From IMG/VR virus record IMGVR_UViG_3300028805_000037, positions 236,446-300,445 of that record: 64,000 bases of DNA; one strand, written 5' to 3'. Position 1 is the stretch's first letter. Every line of letters starts with the position of its first letter. The notes beneath the pieces are model-generated. The model was not told where the DNA came from. It saw only the letters and a program-made list of their open reading frames with translations, and ran no database searches. Of the stretch, positions 20,235-29,223 are shown piece after piece. Position numbers and translations under genes: made by a program. Origin of the DNA: a virus (taxonomy: Duplodnaviria; Caudoviricetes).

Positions 20235-21164
20235 ATGACTAACAATGATATATTAAGACAATTAGCTGAAGCTTTACAGTCTACAGCTATAAAAAAGACT
20301 GCTTCTAAAAATGAAGGTCCGTCAGTAGAACAAATGAATGCAGATTTTGCAAAATATTTGAATGCTGGTGATTTTGGTAGAAAAAAAGCTGCTGTAGCTT
20401 TTGACAAACCTTTGAAAATGAAAGTTGCTTATGAAGCAATTCTTCCTAAAATTTTCAAAGAAGATAATATAGCAAATTCAGTTGCTTGGGCAGATGTTGA
20501 ATTTCCTGAAATTGGAGCTGTAGTTGTTCCTTTCAGAGGAGCTCCTGCAAGAATCGAAAGAGGTACTGCAAGAGTATTTTATAAAACTTATACAGTATCT
20601 GCTGCTTGGGATGTATTTTATGATGACGTTTTCACAGCAGCTTATTCAGTATTAGATGAAGCTAAAAATAAAGTTGCTATTGGTCTTGCAATACAGATTG
20701 ATACAGATTTGTTTAAAGCTTTGAATGCAGCAGCATCTACTGGAGTATATCCGGATTTAGCAGTTTCAACAATGTCACTTTCCGTTATTAACTCTATTAG
20801 AGGCGAAATGATGGAATTTGATTTGATTGCAACAGCAATGTTATTGAATCCGAAAAGATATTATGAAATGTTAGATGTTACACCTAACCAAGTTGATCAG
20901 GTTACTTTGAACACAGTTATAGAAACTGGTTATATTGCTCAGCTCTATGGAGTAAAATTCTTTGTTTCTAAACTTTGTCCGAAAAATGCTGGTTTTGTAA
21001 TCACAGCACCTGAATATATTGGTAAATGTGTATTTAGACAATCACAACAGATTAAAATTACTGATATACCTTGGGAATTAAAATATGTTGTAGTAGGATA
21101 TCAAAATTATGGATTAACGCTTCATAATCCTAGATCAGTAAGAAAAGTTAACTTTATTGGTTAA
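20235..21164 (+). CDS. Major capsid protein (HK97 fold)
   Basis: Size, position after scaffold/decoration, AMLLNPKRY..., GYIAQLYGV, strong terminator after. Confidence 0.8.
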   Translation: MTNNDILRQLAEALQSTAIKKTASKNEGPSVEQMNADFAKYLNAGDFGRKKAAVAFDKPLKMKVAYEAILPKIFKEDNIANSVAWADVEFPEIGAVVVPFRGAPARIERGTARVFYKTYTVSAAWDVFYDDVFTAAYSVLDEAKNKVAIGLAIQIDTDLFKALNAAASTGVYPDLAVSTMSLSVINSIRGEMMEFDLIATAMLLNPKRYYEMLDVTPNQVDQVTLNTVIETGYIAQLYGVKFFVSKLCPKNAGFVITAPEYIGKCVFRQSQQIKITDIPWELKYVVVGYQNYGLTLHNPRSVRKVNFIG

Positions 21165-21190: not shown

Positions 21191-21227
21191 AGACGAAAGT
21201 AAAAATTTATTTTACTTTCGTTTTTTT
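21191..21227 (+). terminator. Intrinsic terminator after MCP
   Basis: ACGAAAGTAAAA / TTTTACTTTCGT plus T run. Confidence 0.8.
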
Positions 21228-21240
21228 ATTTTATATAATT

Positions 21241-21255
21241 AATTTAAATTTAAAA
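21241..21255 (+). promoter_or_regulatory. Late-promoter-like motif
   Basis: AATTTAAATTTAAAA. Confidence 0.65.
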
Positions 21256-21379
21256 GGTATTGGAAACACCTTGACTAGTTTAAATAAGAATATTATATTT
21301 TTTATATAATATATAATTATAGTTTATAGAATCTAGTCAAAGTTTCCAGCTTTAAATTAAAATTCTATAAACTATTTTT
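21254..21379 (+). ncRNA. Nuclease-associated pseudoknotted leader RNA, copy 1
   Basis: Pairings AAGGT/ACCTT, TGGAAAC/GTTTCCA, GACTAG/CTAGTC, ATATTATAT/ATATAATAT, ATAGTTTATAGAAT/ATTCTATAAACTAT; covaries with copies 2 and 3. Confidence 0.75.
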
Positions 21380-21396
21380 ATTTATGGAGATATAAT

Positions 21397-23265
21397 ATGA
21401 ATTTAGATAAATTAAAAAAAATTATTAATGATGAAAATTTTAAAAAAATTAATATTAAATGTAAATTTCCTAAAATGAATAAAAATAATATTAATATATT
21501 TAAAATAATAATGCAGAAATATGATAATATAAATCAAGATGATATTATAAATATATTTATAAATAAAAATATAAATAATTGTATATGTAAATGTGGTAAT
21601 TTTAAACATGCAAAACAAAATTTTTGTTCAACAAAATGTTATTATTTTAAACAATATTTAAAACAAAGGCAAGAACAGGGATGTTTAGAAAAATATGGTG
21701 TAAAAAATGTATTTCAAAATAAAGATATAATTAATAAAATAACTAATAAAAGAATTAATAAAACAAAAGAAGAAAAGCAAAAAATAGCAGATAAAAAACA
21801 TCAAACTAAATTAAATAATATAGATGAAAATGGTTTAAATTCATATCAAAGAGGTGTAAAACATAGCAAAGAAACTTGTTTAATTAAATATAATATTGAT
21901 AGTTATTCAAAAACTCAAGAATATAAAAATAAAATGCATGAAACATATAATAATAAAACAAATGAAGAAATGAATAATATTTTAGAAAAAAGAAAACAAA
22001 CATGCCAAGAAAAATATAATGTAGACAATGTATGGCAATCTGAAAATGTTAAAGATAAAATTAAAATTACTAATAAAACAAGATATAATGTTGAATTTTA
22101 TACACAAACAGATGAATATAAAATTAAATCAAAAAATACTTGGAATAGCAAAACACAAGATGAATTAGAAGAAATTAAACAAAAGGCAAAATTAACAAGA
22201 ATACAAAATGGTAATCAATATCCTGATGGAATAACAAAAGAATTTCTAGATAATTGGGATAAAGATAGAAAACCTACACCACAAGATTTATTAGATTATT
22301 TTCATCAATATTATAATAAAAATACACATTTAACAAATATTTATCCACTTATTATTAATAACAAAGAAGATTTTGAATTACAACAATCACGACTTGAATT
22401 AAAAGTTAAAGATTTTTTAGATAAATATAATTTAAAATATGAACAACATAATAGAAGAGTAATAAAGCCTCTAGAATTAGATTTTTACTTACCAGAATAT
22501 AATTTAGCTTTAGAAGTAAATGATATTTTAACACATAATTCTACATTACATTTATTTGGAGGACAACCTAAAGAATTAAATTATCATTTTAATAAAACAA
22601 TGTTATGTAAAAAAGTAGGAGTAAGATTAATACATATATTTGAACCAATTTTAAATAATGAAAAACAATGGGAAATTTTGCAAGATATTATTTTGCATGC
22701 TTGTGGAAAAAGTAAAAAGATATACGCACGTAATACTGAATTAATTGTGAAACCAGCTATTGAATTAAAACAATTTTTTAGAGATAATAATATACAAGGT
22801 TATCGTTCAGCAAATACAGCTTTTGTATTAATTGATAAAAATTCAAAAGAACCATTAATGTGTTATACTATAGGGCAGGCATATTTTGGTAAAGGTAAAT
22901 ATGATGCTGAAATAGTTAGAGGAGCTTGTAAGTTAGGTTATTCAGTAATTGGTGGTGCAAGCAAATTATGGAAATTTATTATTAATTATTATAAAGATAA
23001 AGATTTATATGGAAATCCTGGCAGTATTAATTCTATAGTTTATTATGTTAATCTTAATTATTATGATGGTAAAAGTATGAATTTTTTAAATAATATTAAA
23101 TTTATTAAAAATCAAAGAGGATTTTGGAATTATTGGGTAAAAGATAAAATTTTAAAAAATAGAGAACCAGGAAGACACAAAGAAATAAAAGATTTAATTA
23201 AAAAAGAACAAGTTTTAGTTATTGGAAATTCTGGAACTCAAGTAAATGTTTGGTCAAGAGAATAA
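21397..23265 (+). CDS. Hef-like free-standing endonuclease (Zn finger, KYGV repeats, PD-(D/E)XK/Vsr-like domain, C-terminal GNAT-like domain)
   Basis: CKCG..FCSTKC; EKYGV/KYNV repeats; ELDFYLPEYNLALEVND; KIYARN..NNIQG..VIGGASKLW. Confidence 0.75.
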   Translation: MNLDKLKKIINDENFKKINIKCKFPKMNKNNINIFKIIMQKYDNINQDDIINIFINKNINNCICKCGNFKHAKQNFCSTKCYYFKQYLKQRQEQGCLEKYGVKNVFQNKDIINKITNKRINKTKEEKQKIADKKHQTKLNNIDENGLNSYQRGVKHSKETCLIKYNIDSYSKTQEYKNKMHETYNNKTNEEMNNILEKRKQTCQEKYNVDNVWQSENVKDKIKITNKTRYNVEFYTQTDEYKIKSKNTWNSKTQDELEEIKQKAKLTRIQNGNQYPDGITKEFLDNWDKDRKPTPQDLLDYFHQYYNKNTHLTNIYPLIINNKEDFELQQSRLELKVKDFLDKYNLKYEQHNRRVIKPLELDFYLPEYNLALEVNDILTHNSTLHLFGGQPKELNYHFNKTMLCKKVGVRLIHIFEPILNNEKQWEILQDIILHACGKSKKIYARNTELIVKPAIELKQFFRDNNIQGYRSANTAFVLIDKNSKEPLMCYTIGQAYFGKGKYDAEIVRGACKLGYSVIGGASKLWKFIINYYKDKDLYGNPGSINSIVYYVNLNYYDGKSMNFLNNIKFIKNQRGFWNYWVKDKILKNREPGRHKEIKDLIKKEQVLVIGNSGTQVNVWSRE

Positions 23266-23313
23266 AACAGGTTTATTTAAAAAGAAATATGGAGTACAAT
23301 TGTATAACGAATA

Positions 23314-23355
23314 TTCACTATAAAATTTAAATTTAAAATAAGTTTATAAGGTGAA
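23314..23355 (+). promoter_or_regulatory. Late-promoter-like motif (23324-23338) in an SD-occluding hairpin
   Basis: TTCAC-TATAAA ... TTTATA-AG-GTGAA brackets the motif and covers AAGGTG. Confidence 0.55.
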
Positions 23356-23358
23356 ATT

Positions 23359-24141
23359 ATGAGTATAAATATAACTTGGACACTTCCATATTCTATATTA
23401 CAAAATCCTAATTATACAAAGATAGATATTTATCGTGGTAATGATGAGAATAAAATTGAGTCATATCATATTATTGCTACTCTTGATAGATGGGTAGATA
23501 ATGACTATGAAAAAGAAGTAACATCATATACTGATCCTTCTGGTAATAATCAAAAATTTTATTTTGTTAAATATACTAATAATAATGGTACATTAGTATC
23601 AAATATGTTATTAACAGCTTTTGATTTAAGTCCTAAGCAACAACGCTGGGTAAATAGTTTAAGAGATATGTTAGATCCTATTATAACAAGTAAAATTCTT
23701 GATGATGGCACAATGCAACCATTAAGTGATACTGATTTATTTTTAGGTATTAATATGGCACTTGATTATTTTAATAATTATAGTCCAGTAACTGATTTTA
23801 CTTATGCTACATTTCCTAAAGGTGGAGGATATGAATTTATTATATTATTATTTGCACAATACTTCACTATTATGAATAAATTTATAGGTTTATCAATCCG
23901 TGATTTCAGTTATTCTGATAATGGTTTATCTTTAAACCAGCAATTTACTCCAGCATTAACTACTGCTATGGATAAAATATTAGGTATATTAAATCCATTA
24001 ATGCAGAAAGTTAAAATGGATTTCAGTATTGATTCTAGTGCAACTTTAGGTTCAACAATGTATGCGGTGGGGCTAAATGGAAGGATGGGTCAGTACCCGG
24101 CTGAAGTTTTTTCAATATTTCGTTCACTTACTACAAATTAA
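23359..24141 (+). CDS. Putative neck/head-completion protein
   Basis: Position after MCP; FN3-like N-terminus; FSYSDNGLSLN C-terminal motif. Confidence 0.5.
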   Translation: MSINITWTLPYSILQNPNYTKIDIYRGNDENKIESYHIIATLDRWVDNDYEKEVTSYTDPSGNNQKFYFVKYTNNNGTLVSNMLLTAFDLSPKQQRWVNSLRDMLDPIITSKILDDGTMQPLSDTDLFLGINMALDYFNNYSPVTDFTYATFPKGGGYEFIILLFAQYFTIMNKFIGLSIRDFSYSDNGLSLNQQFTPALTTAMDKILGILNPLMQKVKMDFSIDSSATLGSTMYAVGLNGRMGQYPAEVFSIFRSLTTN

Positions 24142-24156
24142 AATTTAAATTTAAAA
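24142..24156 (+). promoter_or_regulatory. Late-promoter-like motif
   Basis: AATTTAAATTTAAAA directly after the stop codon. Confidence 0.65.
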
Positions 24157-24163
24157 TATGTTA

Positions 24164-24290
24164 TAGGTAATACGAGCACCTAGAACCAGTTAAATATAAG
24201 ATATTATATTTTTTATATAATATATAAATATAACCTATAGAATCTGGTTCAAAGCTCGTAACTTAAATCAAAAATTCTATAGGTTATATT
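24164..24290 (+). ncRNA. Nuclease-associated pseudoknotted leader RNA, copy 2
   Basis: TAGGT/ACCTA, TACGAGC/GCTCGTA, GAACCAG/CTGGTTC, AATATAACCTATAGAAT/ATTCTATAGGTTATATT. Confidence 0.75.
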
Positions 24291-24310
24291 ATTATAAAGG
24301 AGATATAATA

Positions 24311-25987
24311 GTGAATAAAGAAGAAATACAAAAAATTTTTAATGAATATAAAGATAGGATTATAATTCATAAAAATATAACATATTCTGGCAATTTAAAA
24401 CAAAATATTTTATTGTTCAAAGAAATCAATACAAAATATCCTAATATTTTTAAAAACATAACAGAAATTATTTATTTAATGAATCATAGTATTGATGAAA
24501 AATTTTGTTATTGTGGAAATAAAAATAGTTTTAGAGGGTTAAAATATGGTTATGCTAAATATTGTAGTAATAAATGTGCTGCAAATAGTAAAGAATTTAA
24601 GCAACATTATGAAGATACATTATATAAACGATATGGTGTAAGAAAATTAAGTCATACTAGCTTTATGCAAGAAAAATTTAAAGATCCGGAATGGGGTAAA
24701 AAATGTAGGCAAAATCAATTAAAAACATTTCAAAAAAGAACTGGTTATTTACATCCAAGTTTATGCCCAGAAAGTAATGAAAAAAGAAAGAAAACTATGC
24801 AAGAAAGATATAATGTAGATCATCATTGGATGAGTAAAGATCCTAAATTAAATGGAAGTAAAACAAGATTAGAAAAATATGGTTATTATAATTCTTTTAA
24901 TATGCCAGAAGTTAAACAAAAAGCTATAATTGCAAGAAAAAATCCACAATGGATTGAAAAAGTTTTAATAACTCGTAATAAAAATAAAAAAATAATATTT
25001 GAAAAAAAGCATAAACATTTTGAAGATTATAATGAAAAATTTTTTAGAGATAATTTTATAAAAGATGGTAAATTTGATATAAAAGCTTGTTGTGATTATT
25101 TTAATATAATTGAATCTTGGTGTAATTGCAAAAAGCGTGAATTTAATATAATTGAACCAAATAAAAATGAGCAAAATTTTAAATTACAAAAAGAAGTTTT
25201 TGATTATATAAAATCTATATATAATGGTGAAATTTTATTTAATACACATAAATTTATTTATCCTTTAGAAATAGATATTTATATTCCAGAAAAGAAAATT
25301 GGTATAGAATTTAATGGTGTTTATTGGCATTCAATACGTTATAAAGATAAAGATTATCATTATAAAAAGTCATTATTAGCTAAAGAAAAAGATATAGAAT
25401 TAATTCATATTTGGGAAGATCAATGGTTATATCAAAAAGATTTAATTAAATCAATAATTAAAGTAAGATTAGGATTAAATACAAATAAAATTTTTGCAAG
25501 AAAATGTATTATAAAAGAAATTACTACACAACAATATAAAGATTTTACAAATAAAAATCATATACAAGGCTATAGGAAAGCTTCTATTAAATTAGGTTTA
25601 TTTTATAATGATGAATTAGTACAAATAGCATCATTTAGCAAATCAAATAAATATGATTATGAATGGATAAGAGGATGTCCAGCATCATTAAATGTTGTTG
25701 TTGGTGGGACATCAAAGTTATTTAATTATTTTATTAAAAATTTTAAACCAAAATCTGTCTTATGTTATGCGGATTTTAATCTTTTTAATGGGCAAGGCTA
25801 TAGACAATGTGGCTTTCAATTTAACGGTTATACTGGGCCGAATAAATTTTATTTTGATTCAGAATTAAAAAGAATCGAAAGAAACCCACACAGATATAAA
25901 GAATTTAAACAATTAGTAGAAAATAATCAACTATTATTATGTTATGGTTGTGGTAGTTTGCGTTATATTTGGTTCAATAAAATTTAA
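24311..25987 (+). CDS. Hef-like free-standing endonuclease with C-terminal GNAT-like domain
   Basis: CYCGN..YCSNKC; EIDIYIPEKKIGIEFNGVYWHS; KIFARKC..NHIQG..VVGGTSKLF..YAD. Confidence 0.8.
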   Translation: MNKEEIQKIFNEYKDRIIIHKNITYSGNLKQNILLFKEINTKYPNIFKNITEIIYLMNHSIDEKFCYCGNKNSFRGLKYGYAKYCSNKCAANSKEFKQHYEDTLYKRYGVRKLSHTSFMQEKFKDPEWGKKCRQNQLKTFQKRTGYLHPSLCPESNEKRKKTMQERYNVDHHWMSKDPKLNGSKTRLEKYGYYNSFNMPEVKQKAIIARKNPQWIEKVLITRNKNKKIIFEKKHKHFEDYNEKFFRDNFIKDGKFDIKACCDYFNIIESWCNCKKREFNIIEPNKNEQNFKLQKEVFDYIKSIYNGEILFNTHKFIYPLEIDIYIPEKKIGIEFNGVYWHSIRYKDKDYHYKKSLLAKEKDIELIHIWEDQWLYQKDLIKSIIKVRLGLNTNKIFARKCIIKEITTQQYKDFTNKNHIQGYRKASIKLGLFYNDELVQIASFSKSNKYDYEWIRGCPASLNVVVGGTSKLFNYFIKNFKPKSVLCYADFNLFNGQGYRQCGFQFNGYTGPNKFYFDSELKRIERNPHRYKEFKQLVENNQLLLCYGCGSLRYIWFNKI

Positions 25988-25994
25988 ATTTAAA

Positions 25995-26120
25995 AAGGTA
26001 TTGAGAACACCTTGAACCAGTTTAAATAAAGATATTATATTAGTACAGTATATAGATGTGGCCTATAAAATCTGGTTCAAAGTTCTCAAAGCTTAATCAA
26101 AAATTTTATAGGCTACTTTT
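25995..26120 (+). ncRNA. Nuclease-associated pseudoknotted leader RNA, copy 3
   Basis: AAGGT/ACCTT, TTGAGAAC/GTTCTCAA, GAACCAG/CTGGTTC, GTGGCCTATAAAAT/ATTTTATAGGCTAC (one G-U). Confidence 0.75.
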
Positions 26121-26138
26121 ATTTTGTGAGTATAATAT

Positions 26139-27407
26139 ATGAATTATATTAATATAATAAAACAATTAAAAAAAGAGTCACTAATAATATCTGGCAAAAC
26201 GCCATATCAATTTCAAATAAATAAAGATATATTTCAAAAATATAAAGATTATTTTATTAATATTTCTGAAATGTTATATTGTTTTAAAAATGATAATATT
26301 TTAAATGAAATATTTTGTAAATGTGGAAATAAAAAGAATTTCATTAATATGACGATTGGTTATACTAAATTTTGTTCAAAAGAATGTAATTATAAATATA
26401 GAAATTTTGATTCACCATTCAAAAGAAAAGATGTACAAGAAAAATCTAGAAAAACATTTCAAATAAAATATAATAGTAATACATTTGCTGGCACAAAATT
26501 ATTTAAAGAAAAATCAAAATTAACAAAATTAGAAAGATATAATGATGAAAATTATAATAATAGCAAACAAGCAAATAAAACTAAATATGAACGTTATGAA
26601 AATCACGCCTATAATAAAAATAAATTTGAACAATCAATGTTAGAAATTTATGGTGTTACACATCATTGGAAAGATAAAAATGTAAGAAAACAAATTATAA
26701 ACACTATGTTAAATAATATAGATGAAAATGGATTAAATAGCATTCAAAGAAGAAAATTAAAAATAGAACAAACAAATTTAGAAAAATATGGAGTTAAATG
26801 TAGTTTTTCAAGCAAAGATCCAGAAATAAATGGTAGAGCATCTATAAAAAGAAAATATGGTGTAGAATCTTTTTGGAGTTCACAACAATTTAAAGATCTT
26901 TATAAAGATGAAGAATATAAAAATAAAGTACAAGAAAAAGCTATTCAAACTAGATTACATGATATAGATGAAAATGGTTTAAATAGTTATCAAAGAAGTG
27001 CAATAAAACGTTTTGAAACAATGAAAAAAAATAATTCTTTTAATACATCTCAGCCAGAAGAAGAATGTTATCAATTACTTTTAAAAAAGTTTAGTAAAGA
27101 TGATATAGAAAGGCAATATAAATCTCAATCATATCCTTTTCATTGCGATTTTTATATTAAATCTCTAGATTTATATATAGAATACCATGGAACTTGGACG
27201 CATCAATTTAAACCATTTAAACATTCAGTAGAAGATTTGCAAAAATTAAAAGAATTACAAAATAAAAATACAAAATATTATAATACTTCAATTGAAATTT
27301 GGACAAAAATTGATCCATTAAAATTACAAACATTTAAAAAGAATAAACTTAATTTTAAAATATTTTATAATATAGAACAATTTAAAAATTGGTTCAATAA
27401 AATTTAA
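26139..27407 (+). CDS. Free-standing PD-(D/E)XK/Vsr-like endonuclease with KYGV repeats
   Basis: CKCGN..FCSKEC; KYGV repeats; YPFHCDFYIKSLDLYIEYHGTWTH. Confidence 0.75.
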   Translation: MNYINIIKQLKKESLIISGKTPYQFQINKDIFQKYKDYFINISEMLYCFKNDNILNEIFCKCGNKKNFINMTIGYTKFCSKECNYKYRNFDSPFKRKDVQEKSRKTFQIKYNSNTFAGTKLFKEKSKLTKLERYNDENYNNSKQANKTKYERYENHAYNKNKFEQSMLEIYGVTHHWKDKNVRKQIINTMLNNIDENGLNSIQRRKLKIEQTNLEKYGVKCSFSSKDPEINGRASIKRKYGVESFWSSQQFKDLYKDEEYKNKVQEKAIQTRLHDIDENGLNSYQRSAIKRFETMKKNNSFNTSQPEEECYQLLLKKFSKDDIERQYKSQSYPFHCDFYIKSLDLYIEYHGTWTHQFKPFKHSVEDLQKLKELQNKNTKYYNTSIEIWTKIDPLKLQTFKKNKLNFKIFYNIEQFKNWFNKI

Positions 27408-27432
27408 ATTTAAAATATAAGGAAATAATATT

Positions 27433-29223
27433 ATGTCTATTAAAAAAACAGCTTCAGAAATATTAGATAATTTTACTGGTGGAATTGTTAATATATCTAG
27501 AGGAAGAAAAAAGAAAGCGGCAATGAATAAAAAAGCTGGCGATATGAGTTATGATGCTGCTTATGATGCAAGTAGAACACCACTTTCATACCAAGAACCC
27601 TTATATGACGCTTATCTTGTGATGTTTCCTGAATATAATTTAGTTGAAGCTAATAAAAGATATCGTCATTATGCAAAGTTTCATCCCGTACTTGGTAATT
27701 GTGTAGATATACATTCAACTTTTCCTTTTACTGATTTTGAAATAATGGTAGATAATGAAGAAATAAAAGAATATTATACATATTTAGCTAATGATAAATA
27801 TGATTTACCAAATATGAATACATTATCTGCAAGAGATGAAGTTCTTCTTGGTGAGGCAGTATTTCTTGGTAATTGGGATGAAGCTAATTTTGAATGGGAA
27901 GAATGGTTACAATATCCTCCAGAATTTATTGATATAACAACAATCCCAGGTATTTCATCTAAAGTTTTTACAATTAAACCAGATCCAGAAATACAAAATA
28001 CAATCAGAGATAAAGATAAAAATAGTGATGCTAATAAGATTTTGACAGAAATACTTAAAAAGATGAATCCTAAATATTATGATGCTGCTGTTGAAGATAA
28101 ACCATATACTGTACCAGAAGATAGAGTAATATATCTTGCTAATAAAATTGATGGTTATTCTAAAAGAGGATATCCTTTAACAAAAAGAGCATTACAAGAT
28201 TTAATGCATGAAACAGATTTAAGAACTCTTCAACATACATTTGTACAAAGACACATGTTCCCAATTAAATTATGGAAGTTAGGTAGTGAAAGTATGGGTT
28301 GGGTACCAAGTCAAAAACATTATCAAAATTTTAAAAAATTATTAGTGCAAGCGAGTGCAGACCCTGATTTTAACTTAATCTACCATATAGGTGTTCAATT
28401 TGAAGCAGTTGGAACTAAAGATAAAATTGAAGATTTACAACCTAAATTTGAATGGTGTTCAAAAAGAATAATGAATGCATTTTTTGTTAATGATGCTCTT
28501 CTTAATGGTGAAGCACCAAGTTATGCTGGACAAGTTGCTAATACAAAATTATTAATGTATAGATTTGCTACAGTAAGAAATAATAGAGAAAAAGCATATA
28601 GACAAAAGATATTTTTACCTATAGCTAAAAAGCAAGGTTTAGTTAAACAAAATAATAATGAAAAGAAAACATATACATTAATTAAAAGCAAAACATTTAG
28701 AGATACTCAATATTATCTACCTGAATTTATGTGGAGACAACAAAATACATTAAATAATTATCAATTACAACAAATGTTAGTAGGTTTATATAATGATGGA
28801 GCTATTCCATTTGGTATAATAAGTGATATATTTGGTTTAAGTGATAAAATACTTGAAAATTATCGTAAAAAAGAACAAGGTACTTATGCAAATAGATTAA
28901 CGAGAGAAATTGTAGATGAAATAGTTAAAGCTGATCCTAGTATGTCATTAAAATTTGCTTTAGGTGAAGATCCAATCGAATTATTAAAAGAAAAAAAGAA
29001 AAATGATGAAGTATTAAATAGTACAGAAGAAGGACAAAAAGATGAAAATGGAAATATAGATGATAATTTAGATATGAGTGGCGGAGATATGGGATTTGAT
29101 TCAAGATCACCTATAGAATTAGATAATAATGAAGAAGAAACAAGTAATAATGAAGAATCTGGAAGTGAGCCTCCAATGAGTGAAACTGGAGAACCTCCAT
29201 CAAATGAATCTTCAGAAATATAG
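27433..29223 (+). CDS. Portal protein
   Basis: 596 aa with acidic tail; HPVLGNCVDIHSTFP, LLGEAVF, RGYPL..RAL, FPIKLWKLG; leader MSIKKTAS. Confidence 0.7.
   Translation: MSIKKTASEILDNFTGGIVNISRGRKKKAAMNKKAGDMSYDAAYDASRTPLSYQEPLYDAYLVMFPEYNLVEANKRYRHYAKFHPVLGNCVDIHSTFPFTDFEIMVDNEEIKEYYTYLANDKYDLPNMNTLSARDEVLLGEAVFLGNWDEANFEWEEWLQYPPEFIDITTIPGISSKVFTIKPDPEIQNTIRDKDKNSDANKILTEILKKMNPKYYDAAVEDKPYTVPEDRVIYLANKIDGYSKRGYPLTKRALQDLMHETDLRTLQHTFVQRHMFPIKLWKLGSESMGWVPSQKHYQNFKKLLVQASADPDFNLIYHIGVQFEAVGTKDKIEDLQPKFEWCSKRIMNAFFVNDALLNGEAPSYAGQVANTKLLMYRFATVRNNREKAYRQKIFLPIAKKQGLVKQNNNEKKTYTLIKSKTFRDTQYYLPEFMWRQQNTLNNYQLQQMLVGLYNDGAIPFGIISDIFGLSDKILENYRKKEQGTYANRLTREIVDEIVKADPSMSLKFALGEDPIELLKEKKKNDEVLNSTEEGQKDENGNIDDNLDMSGGDMGFDSRSPIELDNNEEETSNNEESGSEPPMSETGEPPSNESSEI

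What the first reader, a model, noticed from the sequence alone, without database searches (positions are those of the whole stretch)
21254..26120. Three copies of a covarying, multi-pseudoknot ~120-nt RNA, each leading a Hef/PD-(D/E)XK nuclease
Seen: copies at 21254-21379, 24164-24290 and 25995-26120 each begin at or within 8 nt of an AATTTAAATTTAAAA motif and end ~20 nt before a nuclease start. Their segment order is the same: P1a-B-P1b-C-(UUAAAU..AG)-AU hairpin-D-C'-AAA-B'-(CUU.AAUYAAAA)-D'. Paired segments differ between copies but remain complementary. P1: AAGGT/ACCTT vs TAGGT/ACCTA. B: TGGAAAC/GTTTCCA, TACGAGC/GCTCGTA, TTGAGAAC/GTTCTCAA. C: GACTAG/CTAGTC vs GAACCAG/CTGGTTC. D: 14-17 bp, with one G-U in copy 3. 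B pairs out of the P1 loop and D/D' crosses both B and C, so the RNA is either a nested pseudoknot or a two-state switch. The G-U pair points to RNA rather than DNA. I do not recognise it as hammerhead, twister, pistol, HDV, HEARO/omegaRNA or a known riboswitch. Inference: a previously undescribed nuclease-associated RNA. It could be an RNA cofactor/scaffold, a type III TA-like antitoxin RNA (copies 1 and 3 end in a U-run), a ribozyme, or an autoregulatory attenuator.
Basis: partly seen in the sequence, partly recalled or inferred. Interest (0 to 1): 0.92.

Follow-up and report, generated by a model that had tools for sequence, protein, structure and literature searches.

The report
Pseudoknotted leader RNA of homing-endonuclease cassettes
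A roughly 125-base folded RNA of a type not yet catalogued sits between a phage promoter and several selfish DNA-cutting-enzyme genes in a group of ruminant-gut giant phages and moves with those genes; it most likely keeps enzyme production low, although one copy has survived on its own without any such gene.

Summary
The three copies are real. The 300-kb phage holds two more outside the window, and relatives raise the set to 17 distinct sequences (16 parsed helix by helix). All five helices (P1, B, C, the AU hairpin and D) covary: 30 of 43 pairs change on both sides, and 93% of cells pair against 32-45% when partners are slid. Junction lengths are almost invariant (1-2, 0, 0, 0 nt, then AAA). 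That fits an H-type pseudoknot (P1 with B:B') joined to a second one (C:C' with D:D'), ending in a U-rich tail. No Rfam family matches, even at E<=10, and no bacterial or archaeal genome hit was found. Comparison with near-identical relatives shows that leader plus nuclease gene are gained or swapped as one cassette, right after a late-promoter-like motif. The nucleases are DUF7487/PHROG 3339 homing endonucleases with a weak Vsr-like PD-(D/E)XK signal. Other copies of this nuclease family lack the RNA, so it is not an obligatory cofactor. My best reading (about 0.55) is a cis-acting attenuator of nuclease expression. This is a new architecture within the known theme of T4-type homing-endonuclease leaders. 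One orphan copy has kept its structure through compensatory changes without a nuclease gene, so an independent RNA function stays open.

The parts
21241..21255 (+). Promoter-like motif AATTTAAATTTAAA(A) before leader 1. The same motif lies at 24142-24156 (leader 2), 25981-25995 (leader 3), 23324-23338 and 27401-27415 (the next ordinary genes).
   Evidence: 13 exact + strand sites in the window against 3.7 expected, those examined lying between genes. Its role as a promoter is inferred, not shown.
21254..21384 (+). Leader RNA copy 1. P1 21254-58/21268-72; B 21260-67 with B' 21342-49; C 21273-78 with C' 21333-38; AU hairpin 21290-98/21304-12; D 21319-32 with D' 21362-75; U-rich tail 21376-84.
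21397..23265 (+). Homing endonuclease gene 1 (622 aa)
   Evidence: PHROG 3339 E=6e-57; Pfam DUF7487 E=2e-13
24164..24297 (+). Leader RNA copy 2. P1 24164-68/24178-82; B 24171-77 with B' 24254-60; C 24183-89 with C' 24244-50; hairpin 24201-09/24215-23; D 24227-43 with D' 24274-90. The tail is A/U-rich but not a clean U-run.
24311..25987 (+). Homing endonuclease gene 2 (558 aa, GTG start)
   Evidence: PHROG 3339 E=8e-98. Weak hits to I-Bth0305I (3r3p, E=0.049) and Pfam MTES_1575 (E=0.0018, below cut-off).
25995..26126 (+). Leader RNA copy 3. P1 25995-99/26009-13; B 26001-08 with B' 26082-89; C 26014-20 with C' 26072-78; weak hairpin 26035-40/26050-55; D 26058-71 with D' 26103-16 (one G.U); U-rich tail.
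26139..27407 (+). Homing endonuclease gene 3 (422 aa)
   Evidence: PHROG 3339 E=9e-16; DUF7487 E=2.5e-10
25996..27415 (+). Cassette 3 (leader 3, gene 3 and a second copy of the ~27-nt repeat TGGTTCAATAAAATTTAAATTTAAAA). It is absent from the 97%-identical relative L068, where endonuclease gene 2 is followed directly by the portal gene.
   Evidence: blastn of the window against L068
21256..23261 (+). Cassette 1 (leader 1 and gene 1). In L068 it is replaced by a different leader-plus-nuclease allele. The break-points fall right after the promoter motif and at the stop codon.

Best explanation
The element is the 5' leader of the mRNA of a mobile homing-endonuclease cassette. The cassette inserts directly behind a strong late-type phage promoter and carries a second copy of that promoter for the gene it displaces. 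The leader folds into a compact double pseudoknot. A 5-bp hairpin (P1) has its loop paired with B', which is a classic H-type pseudoknot: a 1-2-nt loop 1, a 0-nt loop 2 and an invariant AAA. Helix C stacks next to it. The long helix D pairs a strand from inside C's loop with a strand 3' of B'. D' is followed by a U-rich tail and then the start codon. I infer that this fold acts in cis to hold nuclease output down, by intrinsic-terminator-like release at D/U-tract and by occluding the translation start region. In the diverged relatives the AUG sits only 6-10 nt after helix D and has no Shine-Dalgarno. Shown: the structure (by covariation), its position, its co-mobility with the gene and its restriction to viruses. 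Inferred: transcription from the motif, termination, translational repression, and whether the helices coexist or alternate.
For: Covariation supports all five helices, including the crossing ones. Junction lengths are invariant in 16 sequences. Single-sequence folds are more stable than shuffles, z -3.2 to -5.0. All members followed by a gene lie on the coding strand directly 5' of a PHROG 3339/DUF7487 ORF. The cassette borders include the leader in three independent comparisons: cassette 3 present or absent, cassette 1 allele swap, and L072 against L073. A U-rich tail follows D' in 15 of 16 sequences, and the AUG lies 6-10 nt after D' without SD in six diverged members. Precedent: T-even phage homing-endonuclease genes are held down by leader hairpins, upstream or internal terminators and late promoters (PMC2988022). 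Other nuclease copies of the family work without this RNA, which fits a regulatory leader rather than a cofactor.
Against: No transcript data could be obtained, so the promoter, the RNA's 3' end and any effect on expression are untested. The SD and AUG are not paired by the leader. A test for B' pairing with the start region was significant only in copy 1, so the T4-style sequestration mechanism does not apply. Helix D has an 8-16-nt linker and a ~29-nt 'loop', which is atypical for an intrinsic terminator, and the simple terminator scan did not call it. Copy 2 lacks a clean U-run. A plain attenuator would not need five covarying helices. The orphan copy 5 keeps the fold through compensatory changes (B and D differ between G000 and L218) although no nuclease gene follows.
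Confidence: 0.55

Rival explanations
1. A stand-alone small RNA (promoter, ~125-nt RNA, hairpin plus U-tail) that acts on its own. It could be a partner, decoy or antidote of the nuclease (type III toxin-antitoxin-like logic) or a trans-acting regulator. The nuclease gene would then be expressed only by read-through.
For: Orphan copy 5 lies in a 1.2-kb non-coding gap with no nuclease ORF. It is kept at the same locus in relatives L219 and L218, with two compensatory double changes in B and several in D. Copy 4 is intact although its nuclease gene is reduced to a 41-codon stub. The layout of promoter, pseudoknotted RNA, terminator-like hairpin and nuclease gene resembles type III TA loci (my own knowledge of ToxIN/CptIN).
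Against: There is a single RNA unit, not tandem repeats, and the protein is a DNA homing endonuclease, not a ToxN/AbiE-type RNase. At least seven nuclease genes of the same family lack the RNA. The orphan has decayed in relative L216, so it is dispensable there. In six diverged members the AUG follows the tail immediately, so RNA and mRNA are hard to separate.
Confidence: 0.17
2. A two-state riboswitch-like or protein-responsive switch. State A is P1 + hairpin + D (terminator/closed start region). State B is B:B' + C:C' (D open, A/U-rich start region free). A ligand, a protein or co-transcriptional kinetics would toggle between them.
For: In most members the two nested states are within about 1-3 kcal/mol of each other, for example -19.2 vs -18.4, -21.6 vs -21.9 and -22.1 vs -22.0. 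D crosses B and C, so the two sets cannot be drawn in one nested fold.
Against: The two sets share no nucleotides, so they are not mutually exclusive by sequence as in known expression platforms. The 0/0/0/3-nt junctions and the 8-16-nt A-rich linker fit simultaneous coaxially stacked pseudoknots. Conserved unpaired nucleotides are few (one loop A, AAA, A-rich linkers), unlike ligand pockets.
Confidence: 0.15
3. A self-cleaving ribozyme that trims the nuclease mRNA out of read-through late transcripts.
For: Nested double pseudoknots are typical of small ribozymes, and many ribozyme classes occur in phage DNA (my own knowledge). The element sits at the border between transcription units.
Against: No ribozyme (or any other) Rfam family matches the elements, even at E<=10. 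There is no conserved unpaired catalytic core. Its helix order differs from HDV and pistol ribozymes as I recall them; this comparison is from memory and was not tested with a tool.
Confidence: 0.05
4. A DNA-level element: inverted repeats serving as a protein operator, a nuclease target or a recombination site of the cassette.
For: The P1 arms AGGT/ACCT are invariant like half-sites and lie just downstream of the promoter. I-TevI represses its own promoter through a DNA operator (PMC2988022).
Against: G.U pairs outnumber A.C by 17 to 7 on the + strand. The outer P1 pair covaries (UA/AU/CG). Interleaved helices with fixed 0-3-nt junctions make no sense for duplex DNA. Scores on the reverse strand are far lower.
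Confidence: 0.05

Closest known systems
Regulatory leaders of T-even phage homing-endonuclease genes (I-TevI, I-TevII, I-TevIII, segB, Aeh1 mobE; the seg43(25) hairpin just upstream of the RBS), as reviewed in PMC2988022
   Same: A cis RNA structure lies between a late promoter and a free-standing homing-endonuclease gene, terminator-like elements limit transcripts, and the purpose is to keep a selfish nuclease low. The seg43(25) hairpin, like helix D here, abuts the RBS but does not cover it.
   Different: Those are single hairpins that sequester the SD or hold the promoter. This is a ~125-nt, five-helix, doubly pseudoknotted fold that does not pair with the SD. It is conserved as a family across paralogous cassettes and across phages, and it can persist without the gene.
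Other uncatalogued homing-endonuclease leader RNAs noted earlier in this scan (e1-5390132, e1-5411230, e1-3721453) and Rfam int-alpA RF02996
   Same: Covarying, promoter-linked leaders with loop pseudoknots that travel with nuclease cassettes in uncultured phages.
   Different: Those notes describe a hairpin loop that pairs with the SD or with a decoy copy of it. That design was tested here and is not met. There is no sequence look-alike in the scan and no Rfam hit.
Type III toxin-antitoxin loci (ToxIN, CptIN)
   Same: The order is promoter, pseudoknot-forming RNA, terminator-like hairpin, then nuclease gene.
   Different: There are no tandem RNA repeats and no ToxN-family RNase. The protein is a DNA homing endonuclease family that also occurs without the RNA.
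T4 gene 32 mRNA leader (5' H-type pseudoknot followed by an unstructured A/U-rich stretch up to the start codon; autoregulation by gp32) - from my own knowledge
   Same: An H-type pseudoknot at the very 5' end of a phage mRNA, followed by an A/U-rich run up to the start codon.
   Different: Here a second long helix closes most of the A/U-rich part, and no evidence exists for binding by the encoded protein.

Membership tests
Any Rfam 15 family (including hammerhead, twister, pistol, hatchet, HDV, HEARO, int-alpA and riboswitches) | Covariance-model score at or above the family's gathering threshold | tested here: not met
   0 hits in the window at gathering score. No hit overlaps any copy even at E<=10. 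The orphan locus and its relatives also give none.
T4-type RBS-sequestering homing-endonuclease leader | The SD/start codon is paired within the leader structure | tested here: not met
   The SD lies 3' of helix D and is unpaired. The B'-to-start-region duplex beats shuffles only in copy 1 (3% of shuffles reach it) and not in the other 12.
T4-type RBS-sequestering homing-endonuclease leader | [quoted passage not shown] | tested here: inconclusive
   A promoter-like motif lies 0-9 nt before P1 in copies 1-3, and TATAAT-like boxes occupy that place in relatives. No transcript start data are available.
Intrinsic (rho-independent) terminator | A stable stem with a short loop, followed at once by a U-tract | tested here: inconclusive
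   An 11-17-bp stem and a U-rich tail occur in 15 of 16 sequences. However, the stem is A/U-rich and encloses ~29 nt, and the consensus scan did not call it although it called the capsid-gene terminator at 21191-21223.
H-type RNA pseudoknot | A hairpin loop pairs with a downstream strand; a short loop 1, a ~0-nt loop 2, an A-rich loop 3; both stems supported | tested here: met
   For P1/B:B', loop 1 is 1-2 nt, loop 2 is 0 nt, and AAA precedes B' in all 16 sequences. In B, 5 of 8 pairs change on both sides in an alignment not fitted to B. Whether both stems form at the same time is not testable here.
Type III toxin-antitoxin system | Tandem repeats of the antitoxin RNA, processed by a ToxN/AbiEii-type endoRNase encoded downstream | tested here: not met
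   There is one RNA unit per locus. The downstream proteins are PHROG 3339 homing endonucleases / DUF7487.
PD-(D/E)XK (Vsr-like / EDxHD) homing endonucleases (the downstream genes) | Recognisable nuclease core related to I-Bth0305I or Vsr-type REases | tested here: inconclusive
   Gene 2 matches 3r3p (I-Bth0305I) at E=0.049 over residues 306-380 and Pfam MTES_1575 at E=0.0018, below its cut-off. Firm hits are only to PHROG 3339 'homing endonuclease' and DUF7487. No structure was predicted.

The most novel reading that the evidence does not exclude
The fold is a functional RNA in its own right, kept by selection even where the nuclease gene is gone. It could be a nuclease-binding inhibitor or activator, a ligand-sensing switch or a ribozyme, which homing-endonuclease cassettes of these jumbo phages carry as a second, RNA-level component. 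That would make the cassette a two-part (RNA plus protein) selfish element.
Probability: 0.2. Interest if true: 0.85.

Novelty: new variant of a known kind. Interest (0 to 1): 0.6.

Why it matters
Homing endonucleases must be expressed enough to spread yet not enough to harm the phage that carries them. The only well-studied solutions are the simple hairpins and terminators of T4-type phages. This finding adds a well-supported new RNA family: 17 sequences, five covarying helices and two interlocked pseudoknots. It shows that the RNA is part of the mobile unit, and that the unit parks behind strong structural-gene promoters and brings a spare promoter for the displaced gene. The cassette is therefore a compact, portable 'promoter-capture plus attenuator' module, of possible use as a tunable expression insulator. 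The orphan copy that keeps its fold without a nuclease gene raises a testable question: do such leaders have a life of their own? Together with earlier scan notes on unrelated leader families, the finding suggests that structured leaders are a general, under-described feature of phage homing-endonuclease cassettes.

Tried and rejected
- Rfam at gathering score and at E<=10 found nothing on the elements. ARAGORN found no tRNA or tmRNA.
- Anti-SD/decoy design, as in other leader families noted by this scan: B' against the start region is not better than shuffles in 12 of 13 sequences. Rejected.
- -1 frameshift or read-through signal: the motif contains slippery-looking heptamers (AAATTTA, TTTAAAT) and is followed by an H-type pseudoknot. 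However, the heptamers are not in frame with the upstream ORF at copy 3, the leader appears to carry stop codons (read by eye), and the motif precedes many genes that have no pseudoknot. Rejected.
- Internal sigma-70 promoter (TTGACT ... TATATT) inside leader 1: by eye the -35-like box is not kept in the relatives. Rejected.
- A small alternative hairpin AAAG.../...CUUU inside the D loop was seen by eye in many members, but RNAalifold did not pick it. Left open.
- Pattern scans of IMG/VR gave only chance matches by CM. A later pattern recovered known relatives plus one new contig.
- A scan of GTDB genomes gave 67 pattern matches and no CM hit.
- The metagenome scan gave one true hit.
- Sequencing runs: no RNA holder was listed, so expression could not be examined.
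- Contigs of four DNA runs laid on the region were too fragmented and noisy in this AT-rich DNA to define borders. Borders came from encoding-contig loci instead.
- No RNA 3-D prediction tool was available, and no protein structure or complex job was run.

Full report
**Setting.** The window is bases 236,446-300,445 of a 300,445-bp virus record with 26% G+C and a CheckV completeness of 98%. DNA near-identical to the region occurs only in sheep, bovine and other gut metagenome runs.

The region 19-29 kb of the window is a structural-gene block. It holds a major head protein gene (20235-21164), an unnamed 260-aa conserved gene (23359-24141) and the portal gene (27433-29223). Three long ORFs are interspersed among them. 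These ORFs match PHROG 3339 'homing endonuclease' (E from 9e-16 to 8e-98) and Pfam DUF7487. Gene 2 also gives weak hits to the Vsr-like homing endonuclease I-Bth0305I (3r3p, E=0.049) and to Pfam MTES_1575 (E=0.0018, below its cut-off).

The three ~125-nt elements align at 82% column identity. Each copy folds better than its shuffles, with z from -3.2 to -5.0. The nested minimum-energy fold is P1 + AU hairpin + D.

A profile search of the whole genome found two more copies outside the window:
- Copy 4 lies at G000 167.4 kb. It is followed by only a 41-codon nuclease stub, then an IS607-like transposase.
- Copy 5 lies at 199.0 kb on the minus strand, in a 1.2-kb non-coding gap.

Both carry new, perfectly compensated B, C and D helices.

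**The family outside this genome.** A covariance model was built from the five copies (R1). It contains P1, the hairpin and D, but not B or C. Loci were fetched through a metagenome pattern scan, through neighbours of the conserved 260-aa gene and of a helicase gene, and through IMG/VR. R1 then found members in L065, L068 (two), L070, L072/L074, L081-L083, L202 (two), L204, L215, L218, L219 and L223. That makes 17 distinct sequences.

No member turned up among 67 pattern matches in one-genome-per-species bacterial and archaeal assemblies. Related nuclease loci of other phages also gave none. On present evidence the family is therefore restricted to one clade of ruminant-gut jumbo phages.

**Structure.**
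- On the R1-fitted alignment (13 distinct rows), 92.9% of cells form standard pairs. Column shuffles give 79.5% (0 of 500 reach the observed value), and sliding the partners by 1-3 columns gives 32-45%.
- 30 of 43 pairs change on both sides. Helix B was not part of the model, so the fit does not bias it; it has 5 of 8 pairs with double changes.
- A position-anchored parse of 16 sequences finds B of 7-8 bp and C of 6-8 bp in every one. There are 8 distinct B, 14 distinct C, 15 distinct D and 13 distinct hairpin sequences. Shuffling the D-loop reaches these lengths in 6% of trials per sequence.
- G.U cells outnumber A.C cells 17 to 7, and every copy followed by a gene points towards it. The folded strand is therefore the + (sense) strand.

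The junctions are nearly invariant:

| Junction | Length |
|---|---|
| P1a to B | 1-2 nt |
| B to P1b | 0 nt |
| P1b to C | 0 nt |
| D to C' | 0 nt in 14 of 16 |
| C' to B' | AAA (one extra nt in the orphan lineage) |
| B' to D' | 8-16 nt, A-rich |

These are the proportions of a textbook H-type pseudoknot (P1 with B:B'). Helix C sits as an insert in its loop 3, and D-C' forms one continuous strand of a second pseudoknot.

The two maximal nested sub-structures have almost equal computed energies in most members. A switch therefore cannot be excluded. However, the two sets share no nucleotides, so they are not mutually exclusive by sequence. Unpaired conserved positions are few.

**Context and mobility.** P1 begins 0-9 nt after AATTTAAATTTAAA(A). 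This motif has 13 exact + strand copies in the window, most of them before ordinary genes. It is most simply a phage promoter, which is an inference.

Comparison with L068, a 97%-identical relative, shows the following:
- Window bases 25996-27415 (leader 3, gene 3 and a second copy of a ~27-nt repeat that includes the motif) are simply absent from L068.
- Window bases 21256-23261 (leader 1 and gene 1) are replaced in L068 by a different leader-plus-nuclease allele.
- The break-points fall exactly after the motif and at the stop codon.

In a second lineage, L072 and L073 are 98-99% identical, except that leader plus nuclease gene (1.87 kb) is exchanged for two small ORFs. The leader therefore belongs to the mobile cassette. 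The cassette lands behind a promoter and restores a promoter for the gene it displaces.

**Link to the nuclease family.** The link is not obligatory. Five further family members in this genome lack this leader (80.6, 82.6, 108, 142 and 297 kb). So do the upstream nuclease gene of L072 and the one in L076. One of these (at ~83 kb) has a different leader, with GGAG in a hairpin loop.

**The 3' end.** D' is followed by a U-rich tail in 15 of 16 sequences. In the window's clade a GGAG or AAGG Shine-Dalgarno and the start codon follow 19-23 nt after D'. In six diverged members the AUG lies only 6-10 nt after D', with no SD. There, a closed helix D must hinder initiation.

The leader does not pair with the SD. 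The B'-to-start-region test was negative in 12 of 13 sequences. The simple terminator scan did not call D.

**The orphan.** Copy 5 has no nuclease ORF or remnant downstream. It is nevertheless present at the same locus in L219 (helicase 97% identical) and in L218 (83% identical). Between G000 and L218, B differs at two pairs and D at several pairs, all compensated. Both are followed by the same partial second leader fragment. This suggests that the gene loss is shared and that the fold was maintained afterwards. In L216 only debris of the leader remains, so it can be lost.

**Interpretation.** The best-supported reading (about 0.55) is a cis-acting attenuator leader. It lets a selfish nuclease gene sit behind a strong late promoter without being over-expressed. 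It would work through terminator-like release at D/U-tail and through occlusion of the start region. This continues the theme reviewed for T-even phages, where hairpins, terminators and late promoters restrain I-TevI-III, segB and mobE, and a hairpin abuts the RBS of seg43(25) (PMC2988022).

The architecture differs from those cases: five helices, two pseudoknots and no SD pairing. It is also a conserved family rather than an ad hoc hairpin. It differs too from the loop-versus-SD 'decoy' leaders recorded earlier in this scan, whose defining feature fails here.

The rivals are:
- a stand-alone RNA, 0.17, supported mainly by the orphan;
- a two-state switch, 0.15;
- a ribozyme, 0.05;
- a DNA-level element, 0.05.

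No expression data were available, so every functional step is inferred.

**Verdict.** This is a real, strongly covarying, uncatalogued RNA family that forms part of homing-endonuclease cassettes. It is a new variant of a known kind of regulation. A minority possibility is that the RNA is a functional partner in its own right.

Noticed in passing
L008:2057-2960 (minus strand) = G000:C1 ~198,057-198,960, outside the window; relatives L216, L218, L219: Downstream of orphan leader 5, between divergent SNF2-type and PIF1-type helicase genes, a ~330-nt non-coding core is much better conserved than its flanks in four phages (alignment A5, columns ~100-430). It has no Rfam hit, and in G000 a GAATTA tandem array follows it. 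It could be a large non-coding RNA or a replication origin.
   Followed up: partly
L068:8655-11933 versus window 27433-29223: The portal gene of the 97%-identical relative is 1092 aa against 596 aa here. It carries a ~1.5-kb in-frame insertion with a faint LAGLIDADG_3 hit and is probably an intein. The relative that lacks nuclease cassette 3 thus carries a different selfish element inside the next gene.
   Followed up: partly
window 7277-59522 (13 exact + strand sites, e.g. 11961, 17671, 23324, 27401, 30494, 34330, 35508, 37308, 44139): AATTTAAATTTAAA is a strongly over-represented motif pointing at downstream genes (26 matches with up to one mismatch against 3.7 expected). It is probably this phage's late or structural-gene promoter.
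   Followed up: partly
L009:2567-4728 = G000:C1 ~167,566-169,727: Leader copy 4 is followed by a 41-codon nuclease stub, a fresh promoter motif, an IS607-like serine recombinase (PHROG 6620, E=1e-46) and a 455-aa ORF. The insertion sequence seems to have replaced the nuclease gene.
   Followed up: partly
G000:C1 ~83,803-83,900 (minus strand): Another nuclease gene of the same family has a different ~90-nt leader with GGAG displayed in a hairpin loop (CTATAGGAGTATAG). Other copies (108 kb, 297 kb) have only a terminator and a short spacer. The same genome thus uses several leader solutions.
   Followed up: partly
window 25969-25995 and 27389-27415: A ~27-nt direct repeat (TGGTTCAATAAAATTTAAATTTAAAA) flanks cassette 3. 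It includes the last codons of both nuclease genes 2 and 3 plus the promoter motif, so the cassette may move by recombination through this shared end.
   Followed up: yes
G000:C1 ~198,940-198,970 (minus strand), right after leader 5: Directly after the U-tail of orphan leader 5 comes a partial second leader (hairpin 3' arm to D 5' arm, roughly 30 of 34 identical to copy 1 by eye). It looks like the scar of a deletion between two tandem cassettes.
   Followed up: no
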